From positions 1 to 64,000 of IMG/VR virus record IMGVR_UViG_3300020047_005985: a DNA stretch of 64,000 bases; one strand, 5' to 3'. The notes under the pieces were generated by a model that was not told the origin of the DNA, did no database searches, and worked only from the letters and a program-made list of their open reading frames with translations. This document shows, piece by piece, positions 7,097-62,825 of the stretch; position 1 is the first letter of the stretch; every line of letters starts with the position of its first letter. The position numbers and the translations under genes were made by a program. Origin of the DNA: a virus. Its lineage: Duplodnaviria; Caudoviricetes.

Positions 7097-7152
7097 AGAA
7101 AGTTTAACGTTAGTGCTTATAATACTATCAGTCACAATCTTTCTTTAATTCT

Positions 7153-7365
7153 TCAGGTGTTATTCTCATTTTTCTTTAATTTTTCTAAATTATGTATAAC
7201 TACTTCTGGATCAGGTAATATTTCGTAATTTGTATAACGACCACAATTACCACAACAGCCCCTAAAAGGGGCGTGATCTCTACAATTTAAAAATATTAAC
7301 TTTTTGGTAGTATTGATACAAAGGTCTATAGTACTATTAAATTCTTTATTGGTCATATTTTCCAT
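7153..7365 (-). CDS. Small Cys-rich hypothetical protein
   Basis: ORF in operon, CRDH..CCGNC. Confidence 0.5.
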   Translation of the reverse strand: MENMTNKEFNSTIDLCINTTKKLIFLNCRDHAPFRGCCGNCGRYTNYEILPDPEVVIHNLEKLKKNENNT

Positions 7366-7369
7366 TATA

Positions 7370-21185: not shown

Positions 21186-22806
21186 CCTAAATTGTATTTA
21201 TCAATTGTTTCAGACACAAGTCCTAAATCATTGGAAACATACAAATCTTTAAACATTCCAAATGGAGATTTTGCTGGAAACTCACCATCATTATTTGTAA
21301 CAAAATTATATTTAACTTTATTATCTGCGCCTCTTTCTACTTTAGTATAAAGAACTACTGTAAACAATCCTTCCAATGTTAAATGGTCATCGCATGACCC
21401 TAATGATATATTTTCTTGCAGAATAATTACTTCTGTATATCATCCTTAATATTTCTATCAAGATTCGACTATATCTTTACCAAAATATATCTTTTCTTAA
21501 CAATAGAATCTTTATTAAGATTTCTTCTCACTGTCATTTCACCCATTTTAAACATTGCTTTTACCTCTTTTACTGTATTACAGACAGTTTCTTCTTTAGA
21601 AATAATATCTTTTACTAGAATCTTGAATTTAGTATAGATTTTACCAGTATTTTTAACCGATATTTTATCTCTATGATCTTGAGTAACAATCCTGCCTTTT
21701 AAAGCAATACTTCTTTTTAACAATGTTTCCTTACTAGGTTTAATTCCAATCTTTTTCAATCTTACTCTTTCTATTGTTTCGATACTATGTTTAAAACCAA
21801 ATGTTCCTTCTCCTCCTAAAGTAGCATTTATTAATCTTGGATAAAGTGAAATATAATATCTTTCCTTTTCTTGCCAATTTTCTAATGTTACTTCGTCTAT
21901 AGATTCAATTATAGGTTTCATATTTAATTTCAAAATACTTAATATCCAGCTACATAAATGTTTGTTATGTCCTGTATATTTAGCGTTATCAATATGTCCT
22001 TGTAATCTACGTTTTAAGGTACGAGAAGTCATTCCAACATATCTTACTTCAAGAGTTATTGGATGTTTCAAACAGTATATTTGTATTTTGGTATCTACCG
22101 TTTCCATTTAAGGTAATTAATTTTAAATGTACTCCCTCACAACAAGGGATAGTCTGTGAACTTTATTCTTTGTATAGCAAAAATCATGCTAACTTTAGAA
22201 TCTTAGCTGCTGATTGCCCAATATTAGTTATTTTTATAACATTCACGTTTGTCTTTTCAAACTACGTTGTAGTTAACTAATCTCTAAGGGTGTTCCAGCA
22301 ATTAGATAGATAATGGCCGATTAACCAACCATCTTACCTACAGTTTTCATCTTCATCTTTCCAGTATTATCTTTTTCTGGATGCCAGAGAAAATATACTT
22401 TTAGATCTGAACGAGCTATTCTACTTGCTTCTACTACTTTTGCAATATTAACTCCAATGTCTGCAAATTTACCATAACCTGTTTCCTTTGCTCGTCTCAT
22501 AAACTCAAATCCCATAATAAATTGAGCATCGTCTATTACGATGTTTTTAATTTCTTTACGAGATTCTGAAATATATCCAATTGCCTTTGCAATTTTATCT
22601 GCTTCAGAAGCAGCAAAATAATTTCCATCTTCAGGATTAGTTCCCTTATATAATGTTTTCCATCCTCTAAATGGTAAATCTTTACCACCTACATTAATAA
22701 CAAATGTTTCTTTAGGATCTAATCCTTTAATACCTAACTCTGGAATCTGACCATAACTGGTAGATTTTCCTTCTCCTGAATTTCCTACTACTGCTATACT
22801 TGGCAT
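21182..22806 (-). CDS. AAA ATPase (Sak4/AAA_24-like), split by a group I intron; exons 22806-22328 and 21392-21182, 229 aa spliced
   Basis: GNSGEGKST, VIDDAQF; the splice ATG GT|C GAT GAC CAT restores KTVGKMVDDHLTLEGLFTVVL. Confidence 0.88.
21393..22327 (-). mobile_element. Group I intron (935 nt) with the HEG in the P8 loop
   Basis: P1 ATGGT/GCCAT with U-G; AATTGCTGGAA, AATCAGCAGC, CAGACTA, AAGATATAGTC cores; GAAA-capped P9; terminal G. Confidence 0.92.
21469..22107 (-). CDS. Intron-encoded GIY-YIG homing endonuclease (NUMOD3)
   Basis: IYCLKHP..VRYVGMT..RRL..H, NATLGGEG, KHSIET. Confidence 0.88.
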   Translation of the reverse strand: METVDTKIQIYCLKHPITLEVRYVGMTSRTLKRRLQGHIDNAKYTGHNKHLCSWILSILKLNMKPIIESIDEVTLENWQEKERYYISLYPRLINATLGGEGTFGFKHSIETIERVRLKKIGIKPSKETLLKRSIALKGRIVTQDHRDKISVKNTGKIYTKFKILVKDIISKEETVCNTVKEVKAMFKMGEMTVRRNLNKDSIVKKRYILVKI

Positions 22807-38997: not shown

Positions 38998-39068
38998 GGT
39001 GACTAACAAGAATCGAACTTGCACTGTTGGAACCACAAACCAACGTTCTACCGTTAAACTATAGTCAC
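38998..39068 (-). tRNA. tRNA-His(GTG)
   Basis: GTGACTA/TAGTCAC acceptor, C discriminator, loop TT-GTG-GT, TTCGATT T-loop. Confidence 0.85.
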
Positions 39069-39070
39069 AG

Positions 39071-39144
39071 TGGAAGAAGTTAGATTCGAACTAACAACCA
39101 CAGAATGATGGAATCTGCTGCTCTACCAATTGGCATACACTCCC
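39071..39144 (-). pseudogene. Degenerate tRNA-like element (9-nt anticodon loop TTCCATCAT)
   Basis: TTGGTAGAGC D-region, GCAGA/TCTGT stem, GTTAG-TTCGAAT-CTAAC T-arm, weak acceptor stem. Confidence 0.55.
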
Positions 39145-39202
39145 AGTAGTTTCCTGCTACATATACCCTAGTAAACAGGAAACTTTTGTAATTACTCGCA
39201 TT

Positions 39203-39317
39203 CATCTGTTTTTATACTTAAATTCAATGCTCTACCACTGAGCTATACGTCCGTAGTTAAATAAGTAATAGAGGACGTAAGAAGAATTGAACTTCTGACC
39301 TTGAGTTAGAACAGATG
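39203..39317 (-). ncRNA. Circularly permuted tRNA-like RNA (T-arm, loop-closed acceptor stem, D-arm; ends paired in place of the anticodon arm)
   Basis: CATCTGTT..CTCAA-GGTC-AGAAG TTCAATT CTTCT-TACGTCC-[20 nt]-GGACGTA-TA-GCTC AGTGGTA GAGC-A-TTGAA..AACAGATG. Confidence 0.8.
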
Positions 39318-39424
39318 GCTTTCAAAGATGACTAAAACTAAAGCTTGACTCACAAAACTATCTACTAAAAGTAAATACCATCATTTTGTAAGACTAATGC
39401 TAAAGTTATAAAGAGTCAATATTC

Positions 39425-40180
39425 TTAAAATAGAAATTCAAGTACCTTGTTTCCAAGATCAGATTCTTGACTTTCTATTGTATTTGCATTTTCTAAAGCT
39501 GCAATAACAGCTTTATATAAATTATCATATTTGGCTAAAATAATAGCTCGTTGACGAGTTGTGTACTCCCCTGAGTATTCTTGAGCTGTATAGGAACCAA
39601 TATTTACTTGCGTAGATTTTTCACCTACAATTGGCTGACGACTTTTATCTGGATGCGGATCAACTAAAATATAACTTTCCTTAATTGTGGTTTTTGAAAA
39701 ACCTTCATCAATTGGACTTTCATAAATCTCACGTCCCTCATGTTCTCCATTTGTTGATTCTTTCCAGATTACAGATTCTTTTCTGATTGGAAGTTCATGA
39801 ATCAAACTTTTAATTTTACCGTCCAAAATAGACTTGAGTCTTAAAAGTTCCAGGGTAGTGTAAGTTCCCCAATTTTTTCCATCTACAACTAAATCAGAAG
39901 TTACTCCTGTTGCATTTGTTTTTTCAATACTGAATACAATATTGAAATAATCTTGAACATGAGTTTTAAACCAACTTAATTGTTCTCCAACAGTTGAAGC
40001 AACTGCTTCATATCCACGCTTACTAGGTTCATCTGCATACCCATCAATAGGAGTATATGTTTTTTGATAACCTTTAAATAATCCTTGTTTGTTTTTGAAT
40101 TTACTGAACATATCATCCAGCATTAAACTAAATCCTTTTTCCACCTTATCTCTAAGGCCAAGTTGTACGGCTAATTTCAT
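39425..40180 (-). CDS. Uncharacterised helical/coiled-coil protein embedded in the tRNA array
   Basis: 251 aa; FKGYQKTYTP, KTNA, TLELLRL, YSGE, AVIAALENAN motifs recall a widespread uncharacterised phage/bacterial family. Confidence 0.75.
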   Translation of the reverse strand: MKLAVQLGLRDKVEKGFSLMLDDMFSKFKNKQGLFKGYQKTYTPIDGYADEPSKRGYEAVASTVGEQLSWFKTHVQDYFNIVFSIEKTNATGVTSDLVVDGKNWGTYTTLELLRLKSILDGKIKSLIHELPIRKESVIWKESTNGEHEGREIYESPIDEGFSKTTIKESYILVDPHPDKSRQPIVGEKSTQVNIGSYTAQEYSGEYTTRQRAIILAKYDNLYKAVIAALENANTIESQESDLGNKVLEFLF

Positions 40181-40205
40181 TACTAAAGTTTAAATATTAT
40201 TGTAG

Positions 40206-40288
40206 TAGGGAGAGAGGGACTCGAACCCTCAAAGTCTAATGACCAAAGGGGCTTAAGCCCTTCGTGTTTACCATTTCACCACCTCCCC
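40206..40288 (-). tRNA. tRNA-Leu(TAA)
   Basis: GGGGAGG/TCTCCCT, AAGGG-CT TAA GC-CCCTT, long variable arm, TTCGAGT. Confidence 0.9.
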
Positions 40289-40606
40289 ATTATCTGTCTT
40301 TCCAGACTGTCACCATACGAAGTACTCTACCAAATTGATGTCTTTCCAACCTGTAAGACTCTTGCTATATTGACTCTAGCTATACTATATGGGTTTCTGG
40401 AATCGAACCAGTTTTATCTGGATGCGCTATTTTATCATTCTCTTTTAGGTTTCGCCATCTTGCACTTGTACTCAAGTTCCTAAAATCATTTGGGAATGAC
40501 CCAACCACTTCTTAGAACAATGGGATGTTTTCTACCATCTTTCCTTCAGACCTCTCTCAACTGAAGATTGTATAGTTTAGCTATACTCTATATGGATTAT
40601 TTGGTT

Positions 40607-40981
40607 TTAGGCTACTTCTTCAACACCAACACCTTGTAAAGCAAGGGCCTCGGCGAAATTGAAATCAAAATCACTTGCTGTTGCACGAACTGCGGATGTC
40701 AAAGGACTAATTGAAATAATTGGTTCTGTTGGGCGTGCCTCCGTAATTGTCACATTGCAAAGATATTCATTTCCTACTGAAATTCCTTTTTCAAGGTTTT
40801 TCATGTAGCAAATAGCAGAACGTTCAACTATTTCACCTTTATTATTGGTGAATTTCACAGCACCAACAACATACTCCTTACCGTTAACGTTTGTTTGTAC
40901 AGCTTCTCCAAGAGAAGTTACTGTAGCTTTGAATTGACCTTCAAATTGATTGAGTTCTGAATTGAATGTTAGATTGAACAT
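40607..40981 (-). CDS. Hypothetical protein, possible OB-fold ssDNA-binding protein
   Basis: Beta-rich 124 aa with an acidic tail. Confidence 0.5.
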   Translation of the reverse strand: MFNLTFNSELNQFEGQFKATVTSLGEAVQTNVNGKEYVVGAVKFTNNKGEIVERSAICYMKNLEKGISVGNEYLCNVTITEARPTEPIISISPLTSAVRATASDFDFNFAEALALQGVGVEEVA

Positions 40982-41012
40982 TTTAATTGAATTTATTAGT
41001 GAATTTATTAAT

Positions 41013-41351
41013 TTATAGTGTTTTTATGAACTGAGAATATTCTTCCAATTCTTTTATTTTTGTTTCTCGAATCTTTGGTTCATTAAAAGTTTTTAAGTGT
41101 CCTAATGCACATTTCATATCTTGATTTTGAAGCATACAAATTCTACTTACTAACCATCTTTGATTTCTAACTTTTCTTAATTCTTCTACAAACTTACGAC
41201 TACTTTTAGGTAGTTTTTCATTTTGTAAAAGATGAACCAACATTTGAAACTTTTCTTCCTCAAGTCTATGTTGATTTTCCCAATACTCTTTATGAGTATA
41301 AAATTCTTTTAATCCTTCAAAGATTTTAATAATTTCTTCTGTTGTTTGCAT
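41013..41351 (-). CDS. Hypothetical protein
   Basis: ORF. Confidence 0.5.
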   Translation of the reverse strand: MQTTEEIIKIFEGLKEFYTHKEYWENQHRLEEEKFQMLVHLLQNEKLPKSSRKFVEELRKVRNQRWLVSRICMLQNQDMKCALGHLKTFNEPKIRETKIKELEEYSQFIKTL

Positions 41352-42046
41352 TTTTTTTTCTTTCTTCCGTGATAATTTTCTCCTTTAAAACTATTTTCAT
41401 CAAATCCAGCTTGATCTCTTTTTAAGATATCTAATGCTTTTTGTTCTAATAGTTTTTCTTTTTGTTTTAATAACGCATTATTAAAAATATCCAGAGATTT
41501 TTGTTTCTGTAGTTTTTTATTAATACGATTATTTTGTTTAGATTCAGCTTGCTGTTTCCAAACAAGTTTTTTGTATAAAGGATCTTTTCTAGATTTAAAT
41601 TCTAAAACAGATCCATCATAAGATCTTTCATATTCATTTTCATTCCAAGGACGAATGTATGTAACCCATTTAAATTGTTTATGAATCCACTTTACCTTAT
41701 AATCTTTAGAATAAACTTTATACGACGATTTTATATTATATTGTCTTTTAGGTTTACAAATATTACCTTGACTATCAATAGAATAACTAAAGACGTAAAA
41801 ACTTGAATTATTATCAAATTCGTCTAAAAATAAATATTGCTGATATTTTGGAACTTGTTTACAATAATAACGAAAGGCCATATCAAATGATTTTCCAATA
41901 TTATTATATATAATACGTCGAATTCTTTTCCAAGTATTTATTCCTCCTACAGGATGACAATCACCGTAACTGTATGCATACCAAACGTCAGATCTACGCA
42001 TGGGTTCCTTAAAAGGAAGCTGTTCCAAATAATTAAAATTTATCAT
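41309..42046 (-). CDS. Basic hypothetical protein
   Basis: 245-aa Lys-rich ORF. Confidence 0.55.
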   Translation of the reverse strand: MINFNYLEQLPFKEPMRRSDVWYAYSYGDCHPVGGINTWKRIRRIIYNNIGKSFDMAFRYYCKQVPKYQQYLFLDEFDNNSSFYVFSYSIDSQGNICKPKRQYNIKSSYKVYSKDYKVKWIHKQFKWVTYIRPWNENEYERSYDGSVLEFKSRKDPLYKKLVWKQQAESKQNNRINKKLQKQKSLDIFNNALLKQKEKLLEQKALDILKRDQAGFDENSFKGENYHGRKKKKCKQQKKLLKSLKD

Positions 42047-42063
42047 AATAATTTAAATTTGAG

Positions 42064-42150
42064 CGGAGAACTAGAGAATCGAACTCTAACCGTGATTAAG
42101 CTGACTAACTTAGTAGATCAAAGTAACAAATCAATATTTACCTGCTCTCC
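42064..42150 (-). tRNA. Atypical tRNA-Ser-like element (possible ACT anticodon)
   Basis: GGAGAGC/GTTCTCC plus G discriminator; TAGAG-TTCGATT-CTCTA; elongated D-arm; weak anticodon stem around CT-ACT-AA. Confidence 0.5.
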
Positions 42151-42446
42151 AAAACTAGACTCTACCAACCTCCAAATTAATTTTGATAATATAAATCATG
42201 TTAGTTTAAGTTTTTAATATATCGTTATCATACATTGAAACGATAGTCTGTATCACCGTATCTAATGAATCTTTAATTATAACTGAATCAATTAAAGAAA
42301 ACCGAATAGCATACTTACCAGAACAAGTCACTATAAACCCAACAGGAACATTTCTTTCTAGACATGTTTCGGAAAAATGTTGTAACGCAATGGAAAGTTT
42401 ACCAATTGTATTCATTATTTCTTAATTAAAAAAATCTTATAAAATT

Positions 42447-42535
42447 TGGCGGAAGGCAAGGGAGTCCAACCCTTACAACGTTTTACCGTCCTAGCACTTT
42501 TCAAGAGTGTGTACCTCAGTCAACTGGGGCCTTCC
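42447..42535 (-). tRNA. tRNA-Ser(TGA) with encoded CCA
   Basis: GGAAGGC/GCCTTCC-G-CCA, CACT-CT TGA AA-AGTG, long variable arm; atypical D-arm and TTGGACT T-loop. Confidence 0.75.
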
Positions 42536-42760
42536 TATATTTAAAAATTAATCCTGTCCAGTTTCAGTCTGGAATAGAATTAATATAGTTTGATCTTACT
42601 TCAATAGCTTCTTGTTCAGTATTATATCTACCTAAAGATTTGCGCTGCATGATTTATATATTCGTTTCATTCCCTCGCAATAAAATATAAGTTGTTTCTC
42701 TAATTAGAAAGTACAACTTATAAAACTTTACTTATCCCTCGATATCACTGTCAGGATAAA

Positions 42761-43051
42761 TTATACTTCTACTGGAAATAGCTGTCTAAAATACATAGAC
42801 GCTACTTCTAGGCCAGATTCAAATCCTGCCAATTTATTTTTGGCATCTATAATACCTTGTAAATCAGCATTACGAATAGCCTGAGCCAATTCTTGTTGCG
42901 CTTTAGCAATACTTGCTTTTGTAGTAGCAATGCTAATTTCCCACTCTGATTTCTTGGTTTGAACTTTTAATAGCCGCTCCTCGAACAGGAGATCCTCTAT
43001 CGAGGCTGATAGTGAATCCAAATATGATTGGACTGCTTGTGCTTTCGCCAT
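42761..43051 (-). CDS. Small coiled-coil protein
   Basis: Ala-rich heptads; overlaps the upstream gene by 119 nt. Confidence 0.6.
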   Translation of the reverse strand: MAKAQAVQSYLDSLSASIEDLLFEERLLKVQTKKSEWEISIATTKASIAKAQQELAQAIRNADLQGIIDAKNKLAGFESGLEVASMYFRQLFPVEV

Positions 43052-43778
43052 TATTTATTATATTTAAATTGTTAGAATTTGTTTCTTCAGGAGATACTTT
43101 TTTAAGCATATTTCTAGTCCAGTTTACACAATATTCATTATTATTGAAATGTACCATCTTCGATCCATGATTAAACTCATTTTTTGAACAAGACCTTACA
43201 TTAGTAATTTTAAATTTTAATCCTATGTAAGCTATTCCATCAAAGAATCCAGCATCATCATTTTTGGCTATTACCTCAACAGTATCTCCTATCCAAATAT
43301 CATCTGAATCATTTTTTGATATAGATTGTTCTTTTAAATGACTTATATTTTTAACTCCAGCAAAAAAGTGTCCAAAAGAGTAATCTTTTCTTTTACCATG
43401 TGTGAGATCGTTTGTACTTGCTCCGTGTCCTTCAGTAAATAATTCTGAAAAAATTAAAACAGAATTATCATGAATATTAAACCCAATAATTTCAAAAATT
43501 AAATGAGGGAACCTAACATGATTTACTTTATCTCCAATTTTAAATCCACATATTTCTTCTTGAGGATACTTTTCAAAGAATATATCAAATTGTTTTTTAG
43601 TAAGAACTTTTTCCCAAAAAAGATCTCCCTCTATTGTTTGCCACCAATTAAAGCCATCTTTATATTTATCTGAATATATATCATAATCGAAAACATTAGG
43701 AGAATATTTTCTTCCTTGCTCTTCAACTCTTTCTTTTACTTTATTTTGTATTTCTATTGGGAAGTCTGAAAATTTCAT
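42933..43778 (-). CDS. Hypothetical protein
   Basis: 281 aa, GFNW..T.EG..FW motif. Confidence 0.6.
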   Translation of the reverse strand: MKFSDFPIEIQNKVKERVEEQGRKYSPNVFDYDIYSDKYKDGFNWWQTIEGDLFWEKVLTKKQFDIFFEKYPQEEICGFKIGDKVNHVRFPHLIFEIIGFNIHDNSVLIFSELFTEGHGASTNDLTHGKRKDYSFGHFFAGVKNISHLKEQSISKNDSDDIWIGDTVEVIAKNDDAGFFDGIAYIGLKFKITNVRSCSKNEFNHGSKMVHFNNNEYCVNWTRNMLKKVSPEETNSNNLNIINNGESTSSPIIFGFTISLDRGSPVRGAAIKSSNQEIRVGN

Positions 43779-43876
43779 AATATTTTATTTTTAAATCTGA
43801 TAAACAATAGGGACACGGATAACCGTTAATCCATCCTGTATTATTACATGGTTTACACATATTACTTTGATTTTTG

Positions 43877-43948
43877 TGACCCCAAGAGGGATCGAACCTC
43901 TATCTAGGGATTAGAAATCCCTTGCTCTATCCATTGAGCTATAAGGCC
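43877..43948 (-). tRNA. tRNA-Arg(TCT)
   Basis: GGCCTTA/TGGGGTC, AGGGA-TT TCT AA-TCCCT, TTCGATC. Confidence 0.92.
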
Positions 43949-43956
43949 TTGTATTG

Positions 43957-44028
43957 TAGCGAGTGAGAGAATCGAACTCTCATGAATAGGTCGAAAACCT
44001 ACTATCCTAACCATTAGATGAACCCGCC
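43957..44028 (-). tRNA. tRNA-Glu(TTC)
   Basis: GGCGGGT/ACTCGCT, GTAGG-TT TTC GA-CCTAT, TTCGATT. Confidence 0.9.
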
Positions 44029-44107
44029 AAAAATAGCTATCTAAAACTCAATTACTTGAGAAACTTCGCTATTTTAGTTTTTTACTACGCGTTTATGTAG
44101 TTTTAAT

Positions 44108-44231
44108 TTAGTTAGACAGGATTCGATACCTGCACACAACTACTTCACTTCTGATACCATAACAGGACTTATCGTTGGGCATTTTCATTGCTATCATCCT
44201 CTGGTTAGCGTCTATCTTCCGCCACTAACTA
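44108..44231 (-). ncRNA. tRNA-like RNA with expanded anticodon region
   Basis: TAGTTAG/CTAACTA acceptor, TGGCGGAAGATAGACGC D-arm, GCAGG-TATCGAAT-CCTGT T-arm, about 70-nt non-canonical middle. Confidence 0.65.
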
Positions 44232-44239
44232 ATTTAAAG

Positions 44240-44614
44240 TTACTTCAACATTGCTTTTAACTCATCTGCTGACATTGCTTCCAATTCAGCATCTTGTTTT
44301 CGAGCAATTAAATCCATAATTTTTTGATTGTGGATTTTATTTGCAGCAGCAGCTTGAGTTTCTTCTTGTTCTTTGATACGAGTATCAAGAATAGATGTTA
44401 CAATGGCAAGCCGCAATTCGTTTGCTTCTTGTTCTTTGGTCTTACGACCAGCCTTACGACGAGTAGATTTACCATAACCTTCTATGGTTTCAGTTAATTG
44501 CTCTTCATGAGTAACTAACATATCGAGATTAATATCCCACAATTGTTCGCAGGAAATAACCCCTCCTAAATGAAAACGGAGTTTAAGCCGTGAGGCTAAT
44601 TCAAATATATTCAT
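44240..44614 (-). CDS. Conserved phage coiled-coil protein, partner of the 721-aa gene
   Basis: MNIFELASRLKLRF..G.ISCEQLWD..QKIMDLIARKQD..L..MS.DEL. Confidence 0.7.
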   Translation of the reverse strand: MNIFELASRLKLRFHLGGVISCEQLWDINLDMLVTHEEQLTETIEGYGKSTRRKAGRKTKEQEANELRLAIVTSILDTRIKEQEETQAAAANKIHNQKIMDLIARKQDAELEAMSADELKAMLK

Positions 44615-44615
44615 T

Positions 44616-46781
44616 TTAAAATTTTATTTTAATTGTTCGTTTATGACTACCTGATAACTTCAATATTAACTCCTCGGAAATAGTCGAATTAAAACCCAAT
44701 CCACACAACTGTTTAGTTGCTGGTTCAAGTTTTGTAGTTTCACCTAATACTTCCATTACTTTACGATGTTCTAATAAATCAGAATTTAAGAACTCCGTAT
44801 GAAATGAACGTAAAGCAATATCAGATTTACAATTATCAAGCATAAACATGTAATGTTTGTTGCCTGTATTATTATCACCCCAAAAGTTAGGAGATAAGCA
44901 AACCAAGTTGACTTTATGGAATTGATTGGTATCAAGATTCCAAATCTTCGTAGAAGCAGATTGTGATTCTAAAATCTGACAATTATTTAAATCAGGAATA
45001 AATTCTACTTGTCCATTTTTACACAACAGTTTTCCCAATTCAACTGTTCCTTTATGACTAGCCTTAACAAATAAAGATGTGATTTCCCCAAGTATTTCAA
45101 CTTCAGCCGTAAAATCTGTTCGAACAGTCGGTCCACTATAATTATGAACAAACAATCTGTATTCACCATTTGGCATAACAGAAAGATTTGAATATGTCAA
45201 ATTTTCTACACGTTTTTCAGGTGGAAAATGACCATCACATCCTTGAGCATCCAAATCCAACATTCCTGATGATGGTTGCATACTACGTCTATTACTATAG
45301 TAAATTTCATTACCATTAGGCTCTTTACAATGTAAGTCGTAATCAGATGTTGTTTTTGGAAAGTGAATACTTACTCGAATAGGAGCTTCAATTTTACCAC
45401 CTCGATCTTTAACAGCATCTTTAATCATACTTTTACCTGCAAGATTACCATTATAAGTCCAACCAAAATTGTTAGACCATTTAAATGCTTTCTTACTGTC
45501 AGGATTATTTGCCGTATGCAATGCTACTAAGTTACCACTAAATCTATTTTCAAGAAAAGCTTCAATTGAAGCGCATGTTGGAAGAATATCCTTCATAAAC
45601 TTTTCAATAGAAACTTCTTCAATACCATCAAATTGACTACGTTTATGTTGAGTAGATGTAGATGGTGCAACTTTATCAAATACAGATGCTTGTTTAATAG
45701 TATCTGTGCCTACATTTTGGTGAAGAATTTCTGAGATGTTAATATCATCTAATGTAGAGAACCTACGATCAAATGATTCTTCGTATCCATTTTCTTCAAC
45801 AAACTTTTTAGCTTCCGCAATTTGTTTTTGACTAATAGGAGCAGTAGCTTTCATGTAATTAGCAGGATCAACTCGCTTATTCCATGTAAGTACAGCCTTA
45901 TTCAAATCTTCCCCCTGTGTTAATTCTACACAAAGAGTTCCAATTAATTCATTTCTAAATTTAGCAAATGGTAGATTGTTGGATTTAATCCAACACCAAT
46001 TATCCTTCTCTTTAGTTGGTACATCTTTGTATTCAGTTGCAAACTCAATAAACTTTTTAAGCTTATCTAAGTATGAATCACCATTCAACAAACTACCTTG
46101 TTGAATCAAATCACGCACTAACACTAATGTATCCAATGAAATTTCATCAAGACCTCTTTTGAATACATTTTTAGCATCACGATGATTACCTTGAATAGAT
46201 TCAACTGAGTTACTAGAAAAATCTACAAACTTTTTAGGAAGTATAGCATTAAAATGATAAAATGTATATACTTGACCTGGAGTAACTACACCAAATTTGT
46301 CAGCTTCTTCCTGAGTATAAATTTTGTTGCTTTTTTCAAAGCCTAATTTATATTCAGCTTGAGTTTTATTTGTAGATTCATAATTTAATAGTCTATTGAG
46401 AGTATCGTATGATTCTACAAATACATTTTCAATTGGATTATTCTTTAAAAGAAATGCTACATTGTTTGCAGGGCGAGAGTAAATATTATCAGACAGATCT
46501 ACTGTATCAAACATTGTTACAATCTCACCATTGACTAAAGCTACAATGTTACCATAACGATGAATAAAATTCTTGTCATGATTACATGTATGTTCAGTAG
46601 AATTTGGATCTCTGAATACAGGATCAGCTTCTTTAGTGAAACTTGAGATATACTTATCCCAAACTTCATGTCCAGAAATTTTAGATCTGAATAAAACAGG
46701 TTGTTCACACATAAATGCAAACTGCTGTTTAATTGCTTTGTTAAACTCTTGAAATTTCATATTTCGTTGACAGTACTGCAC
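44616..46781 (-). CDS. Large conserved phage protein with C-terminal YfaP/DUF2135-like domain
   Basis: VDPANYMK, FKWSNNFGWTYNGN, DYDLHC.EP.G.EIYY, LDLDA, VENL, GEYRLFVHNY, GLGF. Confidence 0.7.
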   Translation of the reverse strand: MQYCQRNMKFQEFNKAIKQQFAFMCEQPVLFRSKISGHEVWDKYISSFTKEADPVFRDPNSTEHTCNHDKNFIHRYGNIVALVNGEIVTMFDTVDLSDNIYSRPANNVAFLLKNNPIENVFVESYDTLNRLLNYESTNKTQAEYKLGFEKSNKIYTQEEADKFGVVTPGQVYTFYHFNAILPKKFVDFSSNSVESIQGNHRDAKNVFKRGLDEISLDTLVLVRDLIQQGSLLNGDSYLDKLKKFIEFATEYKDVPTKEKDNWCWIKSNNLPFAKFRNELIGTLCVELTQGEDLNKAVLTWNKRVDPANYMKATAPISQKQIAEAKKFVEENGYEESFDRRFSTLDDINISEILHQNVGTDTIKQASVFDKVAPSTSTQHKRSQFDGIEEVSIEKFMKDILPTCASIEAFLENRFSGNLVALHTANNPDSKKAFKWSNNFGWTYNGNLAGKSMIKDAVKDRGGKIEAPIRVSIHFPKTTSDYDLHCKEPNGNEIYYSNRRSMQPSSGMLDLDAQGCDGHFPPEKRVENLTYSNLSVMPNGEYRLFVHNYSGPTVRTDFTAEVEILGEITSLFVKASHKGTVELGKLLCKNGQVEFIPDLNNCQILESQSASTKIWNLDTNQFHKVNLVCLSPNFWGDNNTGNKHYMFMLDNCKSDIALRSFHTEFLNSDLLEHRKVMEVLGETTKLEPATKQLCGLGFNSTISEELILKLSGSHKRTIKIKF

Positions 46782-46852
46782 ACCTTACTGGTTTAGGTTT
46801 AATAATTCTCTATGTGCAACTTGAGAATTTTACTATTGGTATTTTAAAATAG

Positions 46853-46925
46853 TCAGGATGGATTGACTCGAACAACCGACCTCTTGCGTCCAATGCAAGC
46901 TATCTACCAACTGATATACATCCTG
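46853..46925 (-). tRNA. tRNA-Pro(TGG)
   Basis: CAGGATG/CATCCTG, CTTGC-AT TGG AC-GCAAG, TTCGAGT. Confidence 0.9.
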
Positions 46926-47056
46926 GAATTATGGGTATTCCAACCCACGCATTTAACTTGTTTTACATCAAAGATCTTTTGCCTGTAAAGCCTTTAGGAG
47001 CTTTCTGGTGCTAAATGTAAAACCTCGTTGCTTATTTTTTAAAATCTTAAAATTAG

Positions 47057-47207
47057 TAAGGGCAACTGGACTTGAACCAATAACCTCTGTCTAGTTCGGC
47101 AACTCCGGCAGGACTCTAACCTGCAACCTTCAGACCTGAGCCTGACGCTCTAACAATTGAGCTACGGAGTCAATGACAGCGCTCTATCCAAATTGAGCTA
47201 TACCCTT
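47057..47207 (-). tRNA. Outer tRNA whose anticodon loop is interrupted by a second tRNA
   Basis: AAGGGTA/TGCCCTT acceptor, GCTC/GAGC D-stem, CTGTC/GACAG anticodon stem, ATTGG-TTCAAGT-CCAGT T-arm. Confidence 0.8.
47100..47171 (-). tRNA. Inner nested tRNA-like element (6-nt anticodon loop CTCAGG)
   Basis: GACTCCG/CGGAGTT, GCTC/GAGC, TCAGG/TCTGA, GCAGG-TTAGAGT-CCTGC. Confidence 0.75.
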
Positions 47208-47298
47208 GTTTTCTTAATTAACTCCAGAGGATTTCTCCTATCTTGCACCACACATAAAAGTGTACTCGTTACTACTGGATATCTTTAATTAAGATTTG

Positions 47299-47370
47299 TT
47301 GACCCACTAGGATTCGAACCTAGAACCTTCGGCTTAAAAGGCCGATGCTCTACCATTGAGCTATAGGTCA
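47299..47370 (-). tRNA. tRNA-Lys(TTT)
   Basis: TGACCTA/TGGGTCA, TCGGC-CT TTT AA-GCCGA, TTCGAAT. Confidence 0.93.
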
Positions 47371-47608
47371 TTTTAGAATACCACTTAGGAAATCACCCTT
47401 TAGAAAAGACTTAGTGGCACGCCTTTAATTCCTTTACGTAGAATCAACGATTGTTTATTGGAAAAACAATAAAAATCCTCCAGCTTCACATGGCTGGCAC
47501 ACGCGATATTTATTTAACCGTTAAATATCTAAATCCGTTTATCTAGAATAAACTTAAGGAGTTAATCCGTTTAACTATACGACTATTTAACTCATAGTTG
47601 AGGATTTG

Positions 47609-47681
47609 TGGTGAGAGTTGGACTTGAACCAACGACTTTCGGCTTTTCAAACCGATACTCTACCAACTGAGTTACCTCACC
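47609..47681 (-). tRNA. tRNA-Phe(GAA)
   Basis: GGTGAGG/TCTCACC, TCGGT-TT GAA AA-GCCGA, TTCAAGT. Confidence 0.92.
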
Positions 47682-50900: not shown

Positions 50901-52984
50901 TTGTGAAACTTTATAGTTATAATTTATCAATTGCATATCCGTTACAATTTAAAAAATGAAGTGAAAATATCAGATAAAACCAATAGAACCTGTACTAGTA
51001 GGCATTGATCTATTGGACAAACTCCTGATATACAATAAGAGAAATAATTCAGCTCCGTTGCTATAATTATTCTGTTACCGCAGTTTGTTACGGACTTATT
51101 TTTTTGCGTCTTCTTCTGCTTTTCTTTCTGCTCTTTTGCCTAAAATAGGTATAAGAGAAAAAAATGAGAAGAGGAATGCTACAATAAACACCTCTGTGGT
51201 TTCCATTGCTTGTGTAAGACTTCCATTAAAGTCTGTATAATAGCAATATAAAGCTCCACATAATGTGTATATTGATAGCATATAACATGCGACTTTAATC
51301 CAGAACCACATTAGTTAGGATTAATTTCGGTGTTCATAGGCACTCCTGTCCGCTTAGGAGTTTGGTTGCATTTGTCGTAAATAAGTACAACTACCACAAT
51401 CAATAAGATTGCAATAATTGTATTTACAACTATTTTAGTGAATTTGCTCATACATTTTGAAAAAAATAAACATCTGTTTTATCCAGTGATAAATCGACTG
51501 TGTATTAGTATGGAACTACAATGTAGAACTCACAACTATTTACAAGAACAGAAAAGAGATTTAAATAATAGTGTCATTGCAAGTTGTTCTATGAACTCAT
51601 ATACTTACATATATTTACATATTGCACTATTAAACCAATCAATGCTCAATGGTAGTAGAGTGATTGATAATCTATTGTTTATTTTTAATCTTACTGAGTG
51701 CGATTTACCTTTCAGTAAACTACGTTTCTTCCCATTGTTCCGCCTATCACGCGGTGGTTTTTGTGTCTCTAATCAGTAAGATTATTTTTTATTTTTGTTG
51801 TTTTCTAAAATATCCATTAGGGTTTACACCCATCTGAATAAGTCGTTCTTCAATAGTTCCTGTTACTGGAACTTGTTGAAGTATTTCTTCAATGGTACAT
51901 TCTGTTCCAATTTGGTCAAGGATAATATCCTCGTGAGGATATTCGTTATCTATTCTTTCAGGAATAGAAAACATCTTATCTGCACCTATAACGATAGATC
52001 CAGACGGCTCTTCAATTCCGCTAAGTGTTTCCAGCTTAAGGAATTTTGCTCTTCCTCTTGCTGGGATACGCAAGAAATACAATGTGACTGCATCTTCCGA
52101 TGAACATACCAACTGCCAATAAACAGGTAAATCAAAGACTGGTTTGTTTTCTTGAAATTCTATTTGTGGTAGAATTTCGGTCAATCTTAACATTTCTTCA
52201 TGGCTTACAAGCCGAAGAAAATTACCATTTGGGTTTGCAAACCAATATTGCTGTAATGTAGTTACAAGTAAATTTCCTCCTGCTGTTAGATAGAACTTAG
52301 CTTTGTCCAATAGATATGCAAGATGCATTCTATTGAATGCTTCCCAGGTTTCACATTCTCTGGATGGATTTTTTTGAATAGTTCCATCAGTATTTACAGC
52401 GTAACATGTATATGTTACATGAGTGTCGGTTGTTTCTTGAACGTAAGCATGGAGAATTTCATCTCCGAATTTTAGCTTGTACATAATACTTTTTATTTTT
52501 TGAATAATTGCCTACTCTTTTGAAGGATTTTTGGCATACTCCTTATAAACCCTCTGCACTCTGTTATAATCATCAATGATTTCATTCCTATCAATTAAGA
52601 TGGTGTATTAATTTCAACTATAGATTATAACAGCTTACCAGGGACTAGTGGGAATTAGAGTTAATAGGCAAAACACCCAATAAGAGTGACAAATCCTATT
52701 TACCTGCACTTCCGCAAGTGGAGATATTTGTTGCGGTATTTTTAAACATCAGATCAACGAGTATTATTGTCTCTATTGATCTTAAACTGGTGTTATATCC
52801 TTATACAAACCCAACCACAACTTGAGATGTAATCAATATTGTGTTGAATACAGAAAGCTCTACCTTCATACCATTTAAGGCAGATTTCGACAATACGACC
52901 TGATTCAGATCTTATTACTTTGTCAATAATCTCTGCTGGAATAGTAATCCCATTGAGATCATAGTCTTTATTATAGTCTTCCAT
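47965..52984 (-). other. Region of small early-type hypothetical CDSs (47965-48276 2xTM, 48283-48516, 48770-49027, 49072-49542, 49547-49771, 50091-50534, 50544-50936 Zn ribbon, 51096-51311 2xTM, 51789-52484, 52793-52984) separated by long hairpin-rich spacers
   Basis: Co-oriented ORFs with AT-rich leaders. Confidence 0.5.
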
Positions 52985-59169: not shown

Positions 59170-59514
59170 ATGGAGATAAAGATAATACCATTGCATCCTT
59201 TTCCGAAAAATCTTCATGTAATATTCAGTAAGCCTGATGAAGCTTTTGATTATATTAAACAGCATTCACAAGGTTTAGATCATTTGACTGTTGAAGATCT
59301 TCATTATAGTTTTGGTTATACTGTACGAGATGGAAACTGCACAATTTTTCTTTATATTCATAAACCACTAAAGAAAGATATTGGTTTGTTGGTACATGAG
59401 TCTTTACATGCTGTTCAGTTTTTAATGGAGTTTATGGATACTCCTTTTACAAATGATACTTCAGAAGTATATGCGTATATGCAACAATATATTATAAATA
59501 AAATATTAAAGTGA
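59170..59514 (+). CDS. Small zincin-like metalloprotease
   Basis: LLVHESLHAV...EVYAY (HExxH...E). Confidence 0.7.
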   Translation: MEIKIIPLHPFPKNLHVIFSKPDEAFDYIKQHSQGLDHLTVEDLHYSFGYTVRDGNCTIFLYIHKPLKKDIGLLVHESLHAVQFLMEFMDTPFTNDTSEVYAYMQQYIINKILK

Positions 59515-62500
59515 TTACTGATATTCAAAGATTAAAAAAAGATCTTATTTATATTGAAGATAGAACTAGATTCTTGGTTAATGTGCCATCTTTACATCCA
59601 GATCATCCTGATTTTCCAGGATTATGGAAAAAGTATTTTCAGTATTGTATTGAAGGTTTATGGGCATATGATAATGGGGGTTGGAGATTTATGCCACCAA
59701 CTTTATTTTATTACGCAAACTTTTTTAAGATTCAACATACAGAAAGTGGTTCTAAAGTCAGAAGATATGTTAAACCTACTATAAGAGATTTAGACTGGTT
59801 AATACATTATTCTTATTTAGAAGCACAAGGTTTTTCTGGTTACAAAAATGATAATTTATATAGTTGTGATATTGCACTTATAAAAGAAAATCTTTATAAG
59901 GAATTAGAGAAATCTAGTAAACCTGAACTTAGACTAAGGTTTAATCACATACATTCTAAAGATGGTAAAAGAAAACAATATATTCCTGCAAGAGAGTATA
60001 TAAAAAGATTACATGAAGAAAATTTAGGTAAACCTTTATATGAAAATCCTGCAAGAAATATTATTATTTTTGGTTCTCGCGGTTGATCACTCTTCTGCCG
60101 CAGTAATTAGTAATAATTATTAAGAAATATGTAAATTGCTGGAAAGCGACATAACTTATTTCACCACAACATAGTTTGAAAAAACAGGTGTGAGGGTTTG
60201 AAAAGAAATAGGTGTTGTAATCAGCAGCCAAGCTCCTTAAACGGAGAAGGTTCAACGACTAGTATTACTTTAAAAAATTAGACTTTAACTTAGTTAAGGC
60301 ATGACAAAAAGCGATAAAAATTTTATAATAGCTTGTGTTCTTGGAGACGGATGTATAAATCAACGAATTGTAAATAATACAGTTCAAGCAAGGTTTATGC
60401 TTCGACACTCGAATAAACAGTTTGACTATTTTCTATGGAAAGTAGAAAAGTTAAAAACTATACTTAGTAGTTCACAAGCTAAAACATTTCAGAAGAAATC
60501 AGATTATTACTATGAGGATGAATCTGGGAGAAGTAAAATTCTTTCAGTAAAGTTTGAAAGAAATCATCCTTATTTTAAAATATTGTACAGATTTATTTAC
60601 CAAAATAAACGAAAAACATTTTCAAGAAAAGTTTTAGATAGACTTGATCCATTAGGTTTAGCAATATGGTATATGGATGATGGTTCTATTTATAATGCAA
60701 AATATAAAAGAAAAGACGGTGTGGAGAATTATAGATCTTGTACAATACGCTTAAATACATATTTAAGTGAAAAAGAAAACGAAGTGATAATTAAGTATTT
60801 TAAAGATGTGTGGAATATTAACTGGTATCAGGAAAAAGAAAAAAAATTCTATAGATTAAGATGCGGTAAAGCAGACGAGATAAATAAATTTTTTACTATC
60901 ATTAAACCGTTTATAATTCCATCAATGTTATATAAAATCAATATTAAAATTGGCCAACAAGTAATACATAAAACATATCCCCTACCAAGTAACGTTGAGG
61001 GTGAAGATATAGTCTAAATTAGGGAGGAAAGAGTTTTTCTGTTGCTGGAATAGCAACACACATATTAAGTTTTGATGGCGCTAAAGAATATACAAAAGAA
61101 TGGGTAGAAAATCCAACAATTGCGTCTATTAGTATAGGTGCAGGTATTACAGATAAATCTTCTGAACTTGTTTCTAAAATTGTAACAGGTTTAAATAGAT
61201 TAGCAGTTGATAAAGATCTGGGAGTATATGGTACTCCTGAGTCTATTGTATATGAGCCTAATCCATTTTATAGATCTTGGGTAGGTGATTACAAACCAGG
61301 AAATAAAAAGAATCCTTACAGATATGAATATCAAATAGAAACTACAAGAGGTTGGGCACCCAAAGGAACTGGCACAGCTTTATATCATGTAAACTATTCT
61401 GATAAAAAACAAGATGGATCACAAGCTGGTGCTGGAGCAAGGGTTTTATTAGATGCATATGAGGAAATTGGTTTAATGCCTAATTTTAGAGATGCTTTGC
61501 TTTCTAACCAAGCTACTGTTTCTGTAGATGGAGAGCAATTTGGAGTTCAAATAGCTATTGGTACATCAGGTAATATTGAATTAGTTCAACAGTCTAAGTT
61601 GGTTTTTGAAAATCCATCTGAATATAATTTCTTAGAGTTTGATAATTTATGGGAACAATCAGATAAAAAAATTGGATTGTTTATTCCTGCTTATCTTACT
61701 GAACTGAGATTTAAAGATGAAAATGGAAATACTGACATTGAAGCAGCTTTACAACATTATGCCGAAAGAAGAATAGAAGCTGCTTCCAAATCAGATCCTG
61801 CTTCTATTTATAATGAGAAGATGAACTATCCGTTAGTTCCATCTGACATGTGGATTTCAAATAAAGGTTCTTATTTTCCTACTATTGAGTTAATGGAAAG
61901 AGAAAAAGAATTAGTTAGAGATCAATTGTTTAAACAATTAGGTCAGCCAACTAGATTAATTTGGGACTCTAAACAGCCTAATGGAGTTAGAGCTGAATAT
62001 GATCCTGAAATAGAACTAATACAAACGTTTCCTTTTGATAGGACAGTAAATAAAATAGATGGTGGTATTTGTATTTACGAGAAGCCTCAATATCTTAGAG
62101 GATCTATTCCTGATGATATGTATATTGCAACGTTTGACCCTTATGTTTCTGAGAATATAGATGAAGGTGCTTCTTTAGGTGTGACTAAAGTTTTTCTAAA
62201 CCCAAAGTATATTTCTGAAGGATTTAATGGAAATTATTTAGTTGCTACATATATAGGTAAACATCCAAATGGTAAAGATGCTTATTATGAAAATCAGGAA
62301 AAACTTCTAGCTTATTATGGTAATCCTTTAAGAGGATTATGGTATGAAGCAAACAGAGGAGATTCTTGTAGAGGTTATTATATGAAGAAAAATAAAATGC
62401 ATTTATTAGCATTAAGACCATCTAAAGAAAAAGGGTCTTCTGCTGTTCAAAGAAAGGTATTGGAATATGGTATAATGGTTGGAAACCAAGTTGATAAAAT

Positions 62501-62825
62501 TCAAATGTGTGATGATACACATGAATGGTTGTTAAAACATACTGTATTTAATGGAAAGCAGTCCAGAGTAGTAGAAATATATCCTTGTTTATTTACTGTA
62601 CAACAACTTATTCAATTTGAATTAAAAGGAAACTATGACGCTGTGTCAGCTTTAATTTTATTTCCTTTAGCTTTAAAGGAAATGGAACATGATATTATAA
62701 AAGAAAGAAGTAAACCTAATAAAAATATACTAGCAGAAATATCTATGAATCCGTTTTTATTTAAGACGGAAGATACTATGCATAGAATAAGAAAATTCAA
62801 TGAGAGAATTGCAAACGAGACTTGA
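59511..62825 (+). CDS. terL: Terminase large subunit split by a group I intron; exons 59511-60083 and 61023-62825, 791 aa spliced
   Basis: The splice GGT|GGA restores Walker A GSRGGGKS; Walker B LLDAYEEIG; coupling motif GTSG; nuclease TFDPY, YEANRG, NYDAVSA. Confidence 0.92.
60084..61022 (+). mobile_element. Group I intron (939 nt) with LAGLIDADG HEG in the P7.1 loop; no evident P9
   Basis: P1 GCGGT/GCCGC; P10 TCTTCT/GGAGGA; P2 TAATTA-GTAA-TAATTA; AATTGCTGGAAA, AATCAGCAGCC, CGACTA, AAGATATAGTC; terminal G. Confidence 0.92.
60301..61017 (+). CDS. Intron-encoded LAGLIDADG homing endonuclease
   Basis: IIACVLGDGCI and LAIWYMDDGS motifs, MLYKI. Confidence 0.92.
   Translation: MTKSDKNFIIACVLGDGCINQRIVNNTVQARFMLRHSNKQFDYFLWKVEKLKTILSSSQAKTFQKKSDYYYEDESGRSKILSVKFERNHPYFKILYRFIYQNKRKTFSRKVLDRLDPLGLAIWYMDDGSIYNAKYKRKDGVENYRSCTIRLNTYLSEKENEVIIKYFKDVWNINWYQEKEKKFYRLRCGKADEINKFFTIIKPFIIPSMLYKINIKIGQQVIHKTYPLPSNVEGEDIV

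What the first reader, a model, noticed from the sequence alone, without database searches (positions are those of the whole stretch)
60959..61058. TerL group I intron appears to lack the P9 domain
Seen: only 8 nt (TAAATTAG) separate the P7 3' strand (TAGTC, 61010-61014) from the 3' splice site, versus about 65-70 nt with GAAA-capped P9 hairpins in the other two introns here. The splice site is fixed independently by P10 pairing (TCTTCT/GGAGGA) and by restoration of Walker A GSRGGGKS. A hairpin TGTTGCT-GGAAT-AGCAACA (61040-61058) lies just inside exon 2. Known: the L9-P5 contact is a near-universal stabiliser of group I cores, and TerL is essential, so the intron presumably splices. Inference: a minimal P9-less ribozyme, possibly helped by the exon hairpin or by maturase activity of the LAGLIDADG protein.
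Basis: partly seen in the sequence, partly recalled or inferred. Interest (0 to 1): 0.7.

Follow-up and report, generated by a model that had tools for sequence, protein, structure and literature searches.

The report
Phage terminase intron without P9
The terminase gene of this crAss-like phage is split by a self-splicing-type group I intron that lacks the P9 hairpin nearly all such introns have, and five related introns in sister phages lack it too, so it looks like a working minimal design and not an assembly error.

Summary
terL (PHROG 6681) is split inside its Walker A codons by a 939-nt IA-type group I intron (60084-61022) carrying a LAGLIDADG gene.

**Structure.** P7 is a canonical 6-bp helix with a bulge, and its 3' strand is 61010-61015. 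Only AAAUUA plus the terminal G (61022) follow it, which leaves no room for P9 or P9.0.

**Splice junction.** Sixteen intron-less orthologous contigs (11 distinct junction sequences shown) fix the junction exactly at G[SAC]RG|GGKS.

**Relatives.**
- Five further distinct orthologous terL introns from other metagenomes have equally short tails (5-6 nt, one of 14).
- On the six-sequence alignment my model pairs 98.9% of cells, against 30-45% for slid controls. 23 of 67 pairs show compensatory change, including P10 and the sixth P7 pair.
- Relatives of the core and about 80 distant LAGLIDADG introns almost all carry a hairpin (mostly GNRA-capped) directly after P7'. The loss is therefore derived, old (HEG dS above 1) and horizontally mobile.

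The exon-2 hairpin is real in this phage but is not conserved, so it is not supported as a helper. Maturase help remains untested. No RNA reads spanned the junction.

**Verdict.** A new structural variant of a known kind, of moderate interest.

The parts
59511..60083 (+). terL exon 1 (191 aa, ends ...IFGSRG)
   Evidence: Matches PHROG 6681 terminase large subunit, profile positions 80-175. Colinear with intron-less orthologues.
60084..61022 (+). Group I intron, 939 nt, subgroup IA-like, with no P9 or P9.0
   Evidence: Rfam RF00028 gives partial hits at 60133-60278 (32.8 bits) and 60940-61023 (14.8 bits). The comparative model is supported.
60079..60101 (+). [quoted passage not shown]
   Evidence: 5 pairs, 100% paired in 5 sequences, one pair with compensatory change (helix 1).
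60091..60096 (+). P10 intron strand UCUUCU, pairing with exon 2 GGAGGA (61023-61028)
   Evidence: 6 bp, 96.7% of cells paired. The pairs change together: ACCGUU/GGCGGU, ACCAUU/GGUGGU and, read by eye at the shifted L027 site, UUUUCU/GGAAAA.
60102..60121 (+). P2 hairpin with a GNRA loop L2 (GUAA, 60110-60113)
   Evidence: 8 bp, 2 pairs compensatory. L2 is GUAA or GAAA in all orthologues.
60127..60132 (+). P3 5' strand AUAUGU, pairing with ACAUAU (60973-60978)
   Evidence: 6 bp, 3 pairs with compensatory change, 100% paired (helix 4).
60137..60226 (+). P4 (60137-42 with 60221-26) enclosing an extended P5-P5a-P5b arm; L5b is GAAA at 60178-60181, followed by an A-rich strand
   Evidence: RNAalifold on 7 sequences: 29 pairs, 15 with compensatory change. 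L5b GAAA is invariant.
60227..60251 (+). P6/P6a
   Evidence: 100% paired; 2 P6a pairs compensatory (helices 7 and 8).
60255..60261 (+). P7 5' strand A(C)GACUA with bulged C60256; the G60257-C61014 pair sits at the position of the guanosine-binding pair
   Evidence: 6 pairs, 100% paired. A60255-U61015 here corresponds to G-C in 5 orthologues (helix 9). The guanosine-site assignment is by analogy with the Tetrahymena P7, from memory.
60262..60268 (+). P7.1-like long-range helix: GUAUUAC pairs with GUAAUAC (60961-60967), closing the loop that holds the LAGLIDADG gene
   Evidence: 7 pairs, 6 with compensatory change (helix 10).
60301..61017 (+). LAGLIDADG homing endonuclease gene (238 aa); its last ~19 codons are also P7.1', P3', P8, J8/7 and P7'
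   Evidence: Pfam LAGLIDADG_2, 1.8e-30; PHROG 11023. Intact in 6 lineages with dN/dS 0.07-0.29.
60980..61001 (+). P8 hairpin (CCCU..CAA / UUG AGGG, loop GUAACG)
   Evidence: 7 pairs, 4 with compensatory change, 100% paired (helix 12).
61002..61015 (+). J8/7 (UGAAGAUA) and the P7 3' strand UAGUCU
   Evidence: AAGAUAUAGUC is invariant in all orthologues and in the other two introns.
61016..61022 (+).
   Evidence: Sequence. Orthologue tails are AAACAG, AAAUUG, AAUAAG, GUUAG and AACGUUGAUGAACG.
61023..62825 (+). terL exon 2 (600 aa, starts GGKS)
   Evidence: PHROG 6681, profile positions 254-744, 2e-50. 32 related loci found.
61040..61058 (+). Exon-2 hairpin UGUUGCU-GGAAU-AGCAACA (codons V-A-G-I-A-T); probably incidental
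   Evidence: -8.1 kcal/mol, z -3.25, but not conserved among intron-bearing orthologues.

Best explanation
This is a mobile subgroup-IA-type group I intron that lost its whole 3' terminal domain (P9, P9.0 and any P9.1) in an ancestor and still works.

Shown here:
- The core is complete: P1, P2, P3, P4-P6 with an extended P5 arm, P7 with a bulge and a G-C pair at the guanosine site, a P7.1 helix holding the LAGLIDADG gene, P8, and J8/7.
- The terminal G lies 5-6 unpaired nucleotides after P7'.
- A 6-bp P10 is kept by compensatory changes.

Inferred:
- The very short tether holds omegaG next to its pocket in P7, so P9.0 is not needed.
- P10 alone sets the register of exon ligation.
- The fold that L9-P5 normally clamps is held instead by the other peripheral elements. 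These are L2 (GNRA) on P2, the invariant L5b GAAA on the long P5 arm, and P7.1.
- Protein help may add to this.
For: **Junction.** 16 intron-less orthologous contigs place exon-1 residue 191 directly against exon-2 residue 1. The 11 distinct junctions printed, and all spliced products, read G[SAC]RGGGKS.

**Structure.** On the six-orthologue alignment, 98.9% of 378 cells are paired, against 30-45% for slid controls. 23 of 67 pairs have changes on both sides, and 0 of 500 shuffles reach any measure. The compensatory pairs include P10, P3, P8, P7.1 and the sixth P7 pair, which fixes the end of P7' at 61015.

**Short tail is shared.** It occurs in six distinct lineages, recovered from contigs of more than ten IMG/VR metagenome ids.

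**The loss is derived.** Relatives of the same core and about 80 distant LAGLIDADG introns almost all show a hairpin starting a few nt after P7'. Of 84 distinct sites, 75 pass a strict test and 48 are GNRA-capped. The 84 sites include two of the P9-less terL lineage itself (L065 and L102), which pass the lenient test only through G-U-rich pairs with exon 2.

**The lineage is old and mobile.** HEG dS is above 1 with dN/dS 0.07-0.29. HEG identities are incongruent with TerL identities: WIN-L005 is 78% for TerL and 57% for HEG, while L027-L102 is 52% and 72%.

**The constraint is on the RNA.** In L005 the ORF stops 50 nt before the splice site, yet P3', P8 and P7' are conserved.

**Precedent from engineering.** Tetrahymena constructs holding P1-P8, P9.0 and omegaG carry out both steps. 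That paper also states that P9.0 or P10 can each be removed singly (PMC11417360).
Against: No splicing has been observed. There are no cDNA or RNA reads across the junction.

In PMC11417360, replacing P9.0 by an unstructured linker strongly reduced the second step. In that construct omegaG was far away in sequence, unlike here.

The proposed compensating contacts (L2-P8, L5b) are inferred from other introns and are not tested here. The long P5 arm is also present in the P9-bearing intron 2, so it is not a specific compensation.

Rfam RF00028 does not reach its gathering score (32.8 and 14.8 bits against 50).
Confidence: 0.78

Rival explanations
1. The RNA alone is not sufficient. The intron-encoded LAGLIDADG protein, or a host or phage factor, acts as a maturase or chaperone that replaces the missing L9-P5 clamp. 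This is a variant of the best explanation and does not exclude it.
For: The ORF is intact and under purifying selection in all six lineages, and no ORF-less copy was seen. Bifunctional LAGLIDADG maturases are known in fungal mitochondria, and one bacterial case (Thermotoga) is cited in PMC3984707. Some phage introns splice in vivo but not in vitro (PMC11878797).
Against: Both catalytic motifs (LGDG and MDDG) are conserved. The HEG tree is incongruent with the TerL tree, so ongoing homing already explains the selection. Distant relatives with the same ORF layout keep P9. There are only six lineages.
Confidence: 0.3
2. The exon-2 hairpin (61040-61058) substitutes for P9 and docks onto the core.
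For: The hairpin is real in this phage: -8.1 kcal/mol, z -3.25. L027 also folds well there, at -10.7.
Against: It is not conserved. L005, L008 and L019 fold weakly (-3.1 to -5.1) with different shapes. Intron-less L009 has a comparable hairpin at -7.0. The loop GGAAU is not a GNRA loop. The stem follows from the V-A-G-I-A-T codons.
Confidence: 0.04
3. Artefact or dead gene: P9 was lost through mis-assembly or a recent deletion and terL is non-functional, or the true 3' splice site lies downstream.
For: None beyond the oddity itself.
Against: Six divergent lineages from independent assemblies show the same architecture. A DNA contig of run X1 (823 nt, no differences) spans 60901-61723, though it may come from the source sample. 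The genome is complete with terminal repeats. Exon 2 is colinear from its first codon with intron-less alleles.
Confidence: 0.02

Closest known systems
Phage subgroup IA2 introns (T4 td, nrdB; Staphylococcus phage Twort orf142-I2)
   Same: [quoted passage not shown]
   Different: Those introns have P9.0, P9 and usually P9.1/P9.2, with an L9 GNRA-P5 contact (from memory: Jaeger, Michel and Westhof 1994; Golden 2005). Here nothing follows P7' except 5-6 nt and omegaG.
The two other introns of this genome (about 22323-21393 and 33942-32874, minus strand)
   Same: Same J8/7-P7' motif. Intron 2 shares the long P5 arm with L5b GAAA.
   Different: They lack P2, carry GIY-YIG genes in L8, and have GAAA-capped P9 plus a further hairpin. 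The terL intron has P2, carries its ORF in P7.1, and has no P9.
Engineered minimal ribozymes: Tetrahymena P1-P8 + P9.0 + omegaG (PMC11417360); sunY mini-ribozymes (Doudna and Szostak 1989, from memory)
   Same: They show that catalysis of both steps does not strictly need P9, P9.1 or P9.2.
   Different: These are man-made, need high Mg2+, and keep P9.0. The terL intron is natural, mobile, conserved, and lacks P9.0 as well.
Prasinoderma mitochondrial trans-spliced rnl intron modelled without P9 (PMC3873408)
   Same: A natural group I intron whose model lacks P9. [quoted passage not shown]
   Different: That intron is split in pieces and a missing third piece could supply P9. There is a single sequence and no comparative support.
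Introns and inteins of crAss-like phages (Yutin et al. 2021, PMC7886860)
   Same: Same phage order: the best cultured TerL match is Cellulophaga phage phi14:2 at 30%. Core genes carry LAGLIDADG introns and TerL carries inteins.
   Different: Those were detected through protein domains only, and no RNA structures were described.

Membership tests
Group I intron (Rfam RF00028) | [quoted passage not shown] | tested here: met
   U60083-G60097. P1 is 100% paired with a compensatory pair in the orthologues.
Group I intron (Rfam RF00028) | Conserved core: the P3-P7 pseudoknot, P4-P6, P8, J8/7, and a bulged P7 with a G-C guanosine-site pair | tested here: met
   All helices are 95-100% paired with compensatory changes.
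Group I intron (Rfam RF00028) | Terminal omegaG and P10 with the 3' exon | tested here: met
   G61022. P10 is 6 bp and covaries.
Group I intron (Rfam RF00028) | Score at or above the family's gathering threshold (50 bits) | tested here: not met
   32.8 bits for the 5' half and 14.8 bits for the 3' half. The 700-nt ORF insertion splits the match.
Group I intron (canonical architecture) | P9 hairpin (and P9.0) between P7' and the 3' splice site | tested here: not met
   Only 6 nt plus omegaG follow P7'. The same holds in five orthologues.
Subgroup IA | Extra helices P7.1/P7.2 between P7 and P3' | tested here: met
   The long-range P7.1 helix has 6 of 7 pairs compensatory. A second invariant hairpin (60285-60297) lies inside it. 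Its assignment as P7.2 is not shown.
Self-splicing ribozyme (function) | Excision and exon ligation observed in RNA | not testable with these tools
   No RNA holder of this locus was listed. Contigs of the two cDNA-labelled runs matched only generic core motifs.
LAGLIDADG homing endonuclease (Pfam PF03161) | Profile match above the cut-off and two LAGLIDADG motifs with acidic residues | tested here: met
   106.5 bits against a cut-off of 25. LGDG and MDDG are conserved in all six.
Terminase large subunit | Profile match of both exons, colinear, with an intact Walker A after splicing | tested here: met
   PHROG 6681 at 2e-50 and 3e-10. The spliced product reads GSRGGGKS. Pfam gave no hit.

The most novel reading that the evidence does not exclude
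A natural, horizontally mobile and long-lived lineage of group I introns does without the entire P9/P9.0 domain. OmegaG is tethered 5-6 nt from P7, 3' splice-site choice rests on P10 alone, and the missing L9-P5 clamp is made good by the intron's own LAGLIDADG protein. That would be the first phage-encoded group I maturase.
Probability: 0.25. Interest if true: 0.75.

Novelty: new variant of a known kind. Interest (0 to 1): 0.55.

Why it matters
P9 and its L9-P5 contact are treated as part of the catalytic P3-P9 domain. The one natural model without P9 that my searches of the held paper library found was called 'very unusual' by its authors.

A conserved, mobile family living in an essential phage gene without P9 or P9.0 gives three things:
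- A natural lower bound for the 3' domain of group I ribozymes.
- A clean system for asking how omegaG docking and exon ligation work with P10 only.
- A compact scaffold of possible use for engineered splicing or circular-RNA ribozymes.

It also documents that in crAss-like phages the same TerL P-loop codons are targeted by an intron endonuclease in some genomes and by an intein in others.

Tried and rejected
- **RNA evidence.** No RNA holder was listed for the locus. Laying two DNA and two cDNA-labelled wastewater runs gave no contig across the splice junction. The single 'joint', 60261 to 60996 in X11, has a 20-nt side and comes from generic core motifs of other introns.
- **Close DNA matches.** Megablast against cultured phages found nothing.
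- **Rfam.** At gathering threshold it finds no intron in the window. A whole-window E-value scan also misses them.
- **MFE after P7'.** The folding energy of the 36 nt after P7' does not separate P9-bearing from P9-less introns, because the stems are AU-rich. The shape of the fold does separate them.
- **G-U-rich hairpin across the 3' splice site** (UAGGGAGG/UUUUUCUG). It is weak, competes with P10, follows from the Gly-Gly and Phe-Ser codons, and is absent in L019. Rejected as a P9 surrogate.
- **Tail pairing.** Pairing of the tail with the intron's first nucleotides (UGAU/AUUA) is not conserved and is topologically awkward. Rejected.
- **Scan for more P9-less introns.** A scan of viral contigs with UGAAGAUAUAGUCCAA mostly hit coding sequence. 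Two candidates (L233 and L268) have weak or tiny P9-like hairpins and unverified splice sites. Left open.
- **Literature.** Searches for P9-less group I introns returned only the Prasinoderma case. The library lacks most older subscription papers, so prior descriptions cannot be excluded.

Full report
**Context**

The window is the first 64 kb of a complete 108,241-bp virus record with direct terminal repeats.

The interrupted gene is a terminase large subunit. Exon 1 (59511-60083) and exon 2 (61023-62825) match PHROG 6681 colinearly, at 3e-10 and 2e-50. Pfam finds nothing for either exon.

The best TerL match among cultured phages is the crAss-like Cellulophaga phage phi14:2 at 30% identity, followed by Bacteroides crAss-like phages. 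This is therefore an environmental crAss-like phage. Near-identical DNA sits in wastewater metagenomes.

Yutin et al. 2021 (PMC7886860) reported many group I introns and TerL inteins in this phage order. They detected them by protein domains only.

**Checking the observation**

The sequence is as described.

The junction does not depend on any RNA model. A scan of viral contigs with exon 2 returned 32 related loci. In 16 of these contigs, exon-1 residue 191 directly abuts exon-2 residue 1. The 11 distinct intron-less junctions printed, and all spliced products, read G[SAC]RGGGKS.

**Structure of the intron**

Rfam RF00028 recognises the 5' half (60133-60278, P3 to P7, 32.8 bits). It recognises the 3' end weakly (60940-61023, P8' through J8/7 and P7' to the terminal G, 14.8 bits).

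I built the full model by comparison:
- P1: GCGGU with GCCGC.
- P10: as above.
- P2: UAAUUA-GUAA-UAAUUA.
- P3: 60127-32 with 60973-78.
- P4: 60137-42 with 60221-26.
- A long P5-P5a-P5b arm capped by GAAA.
- P6/P6a.
- P7: A(C)GACUA with UAGUCU.
- A long-range P7.1 helix, GUAUUAC (60262-68) with GUAAUAC (60961-67), which encloses the LAGLIDADG gene.
- P8: 60980-61001.
- J8/7: UGAAGAUA.

The ORF (60301-61017; Pfam LAGLIDADG_2, 1.8e-30) therefore sits in the P7.1 loop. It reads through P3', P8, J8/7 and P7'.

**Orthologous introns and covariation**

Five further distinct introns occupy the same P-loop in sister phages: L005 (identical to L006), L008, L019, L027 (identical to L028-L030) and L102. 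They come from many different metagenomes.

On the six-sequence alignment A2, my structure pairs 98.9% of 378 cells. The figure is 30-45% when the 3' partners are slid by 1-3 columns. 23 of 67 pairs show changes on both sides, and none of 500 column shuffles reaches any of the five measures.

Compensatory pairs occur in P1, P10, P2, P3, P5b, P6a, P7, P7.1 (6 of 7 pairs) and P8.

Two results matter most for the finding:
- The sixth P7 pair is A-U here and G-C in the other five. P7' therefore ends at 61015, and only AAAUUA plus omegaG61022 remain.
- P10 is kept at 6 bp through coordinated changes: UCUUCU/GGAGGA, ACCGUU/GGCGGU, ACCAUU/GGUGGU and UUUUCU/GGAAAA. This marks each 3' splice site independently.

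Orthologue tails after P7' are AAACAG, AAAUUG, AAUAAG, GUUAG and, in L027, AACGUUGAUGAACG. None can hold a P9 hairpin or a P9.0 pairing, and they share no complementarity to any other part of the intron.

**The loss is derived**

Other viral introns sharing the GUAAAUUGCUGGAA core motif show an obvious hairpin, mostly GNRA-capped, starting about 4 nt after P7'. This includes those with the same long P5 arm and a P2. The same is true of about 80 distant LAGLIDADG-intron loci from metagenomes.

Of 84 distinct sites, 75 pass a strict hairpin test and 48 have a GNRA tetraloop. The remaining nine have hairpins with longer loops by eye. The set includes two sites of the P9-less terL lineage itself (L065 and L102). 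They pass the lenient test only through G-U-rich pairs with exon 2.

Many of those relatives have the same ORF layout, with EDIV followed by a stop at P7'. ORF overlap with the core is therefore not what removed P9.

Within this genome there are only three J8/7-P7' motifs. The other two introns lack P2 but have GAAA-capped P9 plus a second hairpin. The terL intron has P2 with a GNRA loop but no P9.

**Not an artefact, and functional**

The short tail recurs in independent assemblies. A DNA contig of run X1 spans 60901-61723 without a difference, though this run may be the source sample.

The LAGLIDADG gene is intact in all six lineages. Both motifs are conserved, dN/dS is 0.07-0.29 and dS is above 1, so the lineage is old.

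In L005 the ORF stops 50 nt before the splice site, yet P3', P8 and P7' stay conserved. The constraint on that stretch is therefore on the RNA.

HEG identities are incongruent with TerL identities:

| Pair | TerL identity | HEG identity |
|---|---|---|
| WIN-L005 | 78% | 57% |
| WIN-L019 | 69% | 75% |
| L027-L102 | 52% | 72% |

This pattern is the signature of horizontal homing. An intron that keeps invading the Walker A codons of an essential packaging ATPase must be removed efficiently from the mRNA.

**How it probably works**

Shown: a complete catalytic core, omegaG 5-6 nt from P7', and a selected 6-bp P10.

Inferred:
- The short covalent tether replaces P9.0 in presenting omegaG to the G60257-C61014 site.
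- P10 sets the register.
- The global fold is held by the remaining peripheral contacts: L2 GNRA, the invariant L5b GAAA on the long P5 arm and P7.1.

Engineering work supports the feasibility. Tetrahymena constructs with P1-P8, P9.0 and omegaG perform both steps, and that paper states that P9.0 or P10 can each be removed singly but not together (PMC11417360). In the same work, an unstructured distant linker in place of P9.0 hurt the second step. The extreme shortness of the tether here may therefore be the point.

**Rivals**

- *Maturase help.* This is possible but untested. Purifying selection on the ORF is equally explained by homing.
- *Exon hairpin.* It is real here (z -3.25). The orthologous 36 nt fold to -3.1, -4.2, -5.1 and -10.7 kcal/mol with different shapes. 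Intron-less L009 reaches -7.0. It follows from the V-A-G-I-A-T codons, so I reject it as a P9 surrogate.
- *Assembly error, recent deletion or a downstream splice site.* All are excluded by the orthologues.

**Novelty**

Searches of the available library found one natural P9-less model, the trans-spliced Prasinoderma rnl intron. [quoted passage not shown]

I found no description of a conserved P9/P9.0-less lineage. The library lacks much of the older literature, so I rate this a new variant of a known kind and not more.

No RNA evidence could be obtained. Splicing is therefore inferred from conservation, mobility and gene essentiality.

Noticed in passing
L012:2957-3991, L031:2957-3991 (also L016, L017, L018): In sister phages the same TerL Walker A loop carries a 345-aa intein (Hint plus LAGLIDADG_3/Hom_end). 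It sits two codons upstream of the intron site (LG^[C...HN]^SRGGGKS). Two different mobile elements therefore target the same P-loop.
   Followed up: partly
L027:3050-4000 (identical in L028-L030, and L325): This orthologous intron sits one codon (3 nt) further downstream (GSRGG|GKS instead of GSRG|GGKS). P1 (GGCGGU/GCCGUC) and P10 (UUUUCU/GGAAAA) are adjusted to match, and the tail is longer at 14 nt. This is an apparent intron-position shift within the GGN repeat.
   Followed up: partly
L008 and L102 3' splice sites; window 61015-61017: The endonuclease stop codon sits at or across the 3' splice site. It is UAA immediately after P7' here. In L102 it is UAG whose G is omegaG. In L008 it lies 8 nt inside exon 2. 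Translation of the ORF must unwind P3', P8 and P7'.
   Followed up: partly
window 21393-22323 (-) and 32874-33942 (-): Two further group I introns carry GIY-YIG genes in L8. They have no P2 and have GAAA-capped P9. One lies in an ATPase-like gene, with its 3' splice site not verified. The other splits SF2 helicase motif VI (QMIG|RLR).
   Followed up: partly
window 60285-60297: The hairpin UUAAC-N3-5-GUUAA just upstream of the LAGLIDADG start codon is nearly invariant in six orthologues, with no covariation. It may be P7.2 or a control element for the ORF.
   Followed up: no
L233 (about 7080-7960 on the minus strand) and L268 (about 3130-3485 on the minus strand): Two unrelated viral contigs hold group I introns whose P7' is followed by at most a tiny or weak hairpin before a long open frame. 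These are possible further cases of a reduced P9. Their splice sites were not determined.
   Followed up: partly
window 52509-52544 (-): Rfam DUF805b RNA motif above its gathering score (42.4 bits), in a phage genome.
   Followed up: no
window 38998-47681 (-): A cluster of at least eight tRNA genes. A weak YrlA (Y RNA-like) match lies at 39199-39318 (33.7 bits, below threshold).
   Followed up: no
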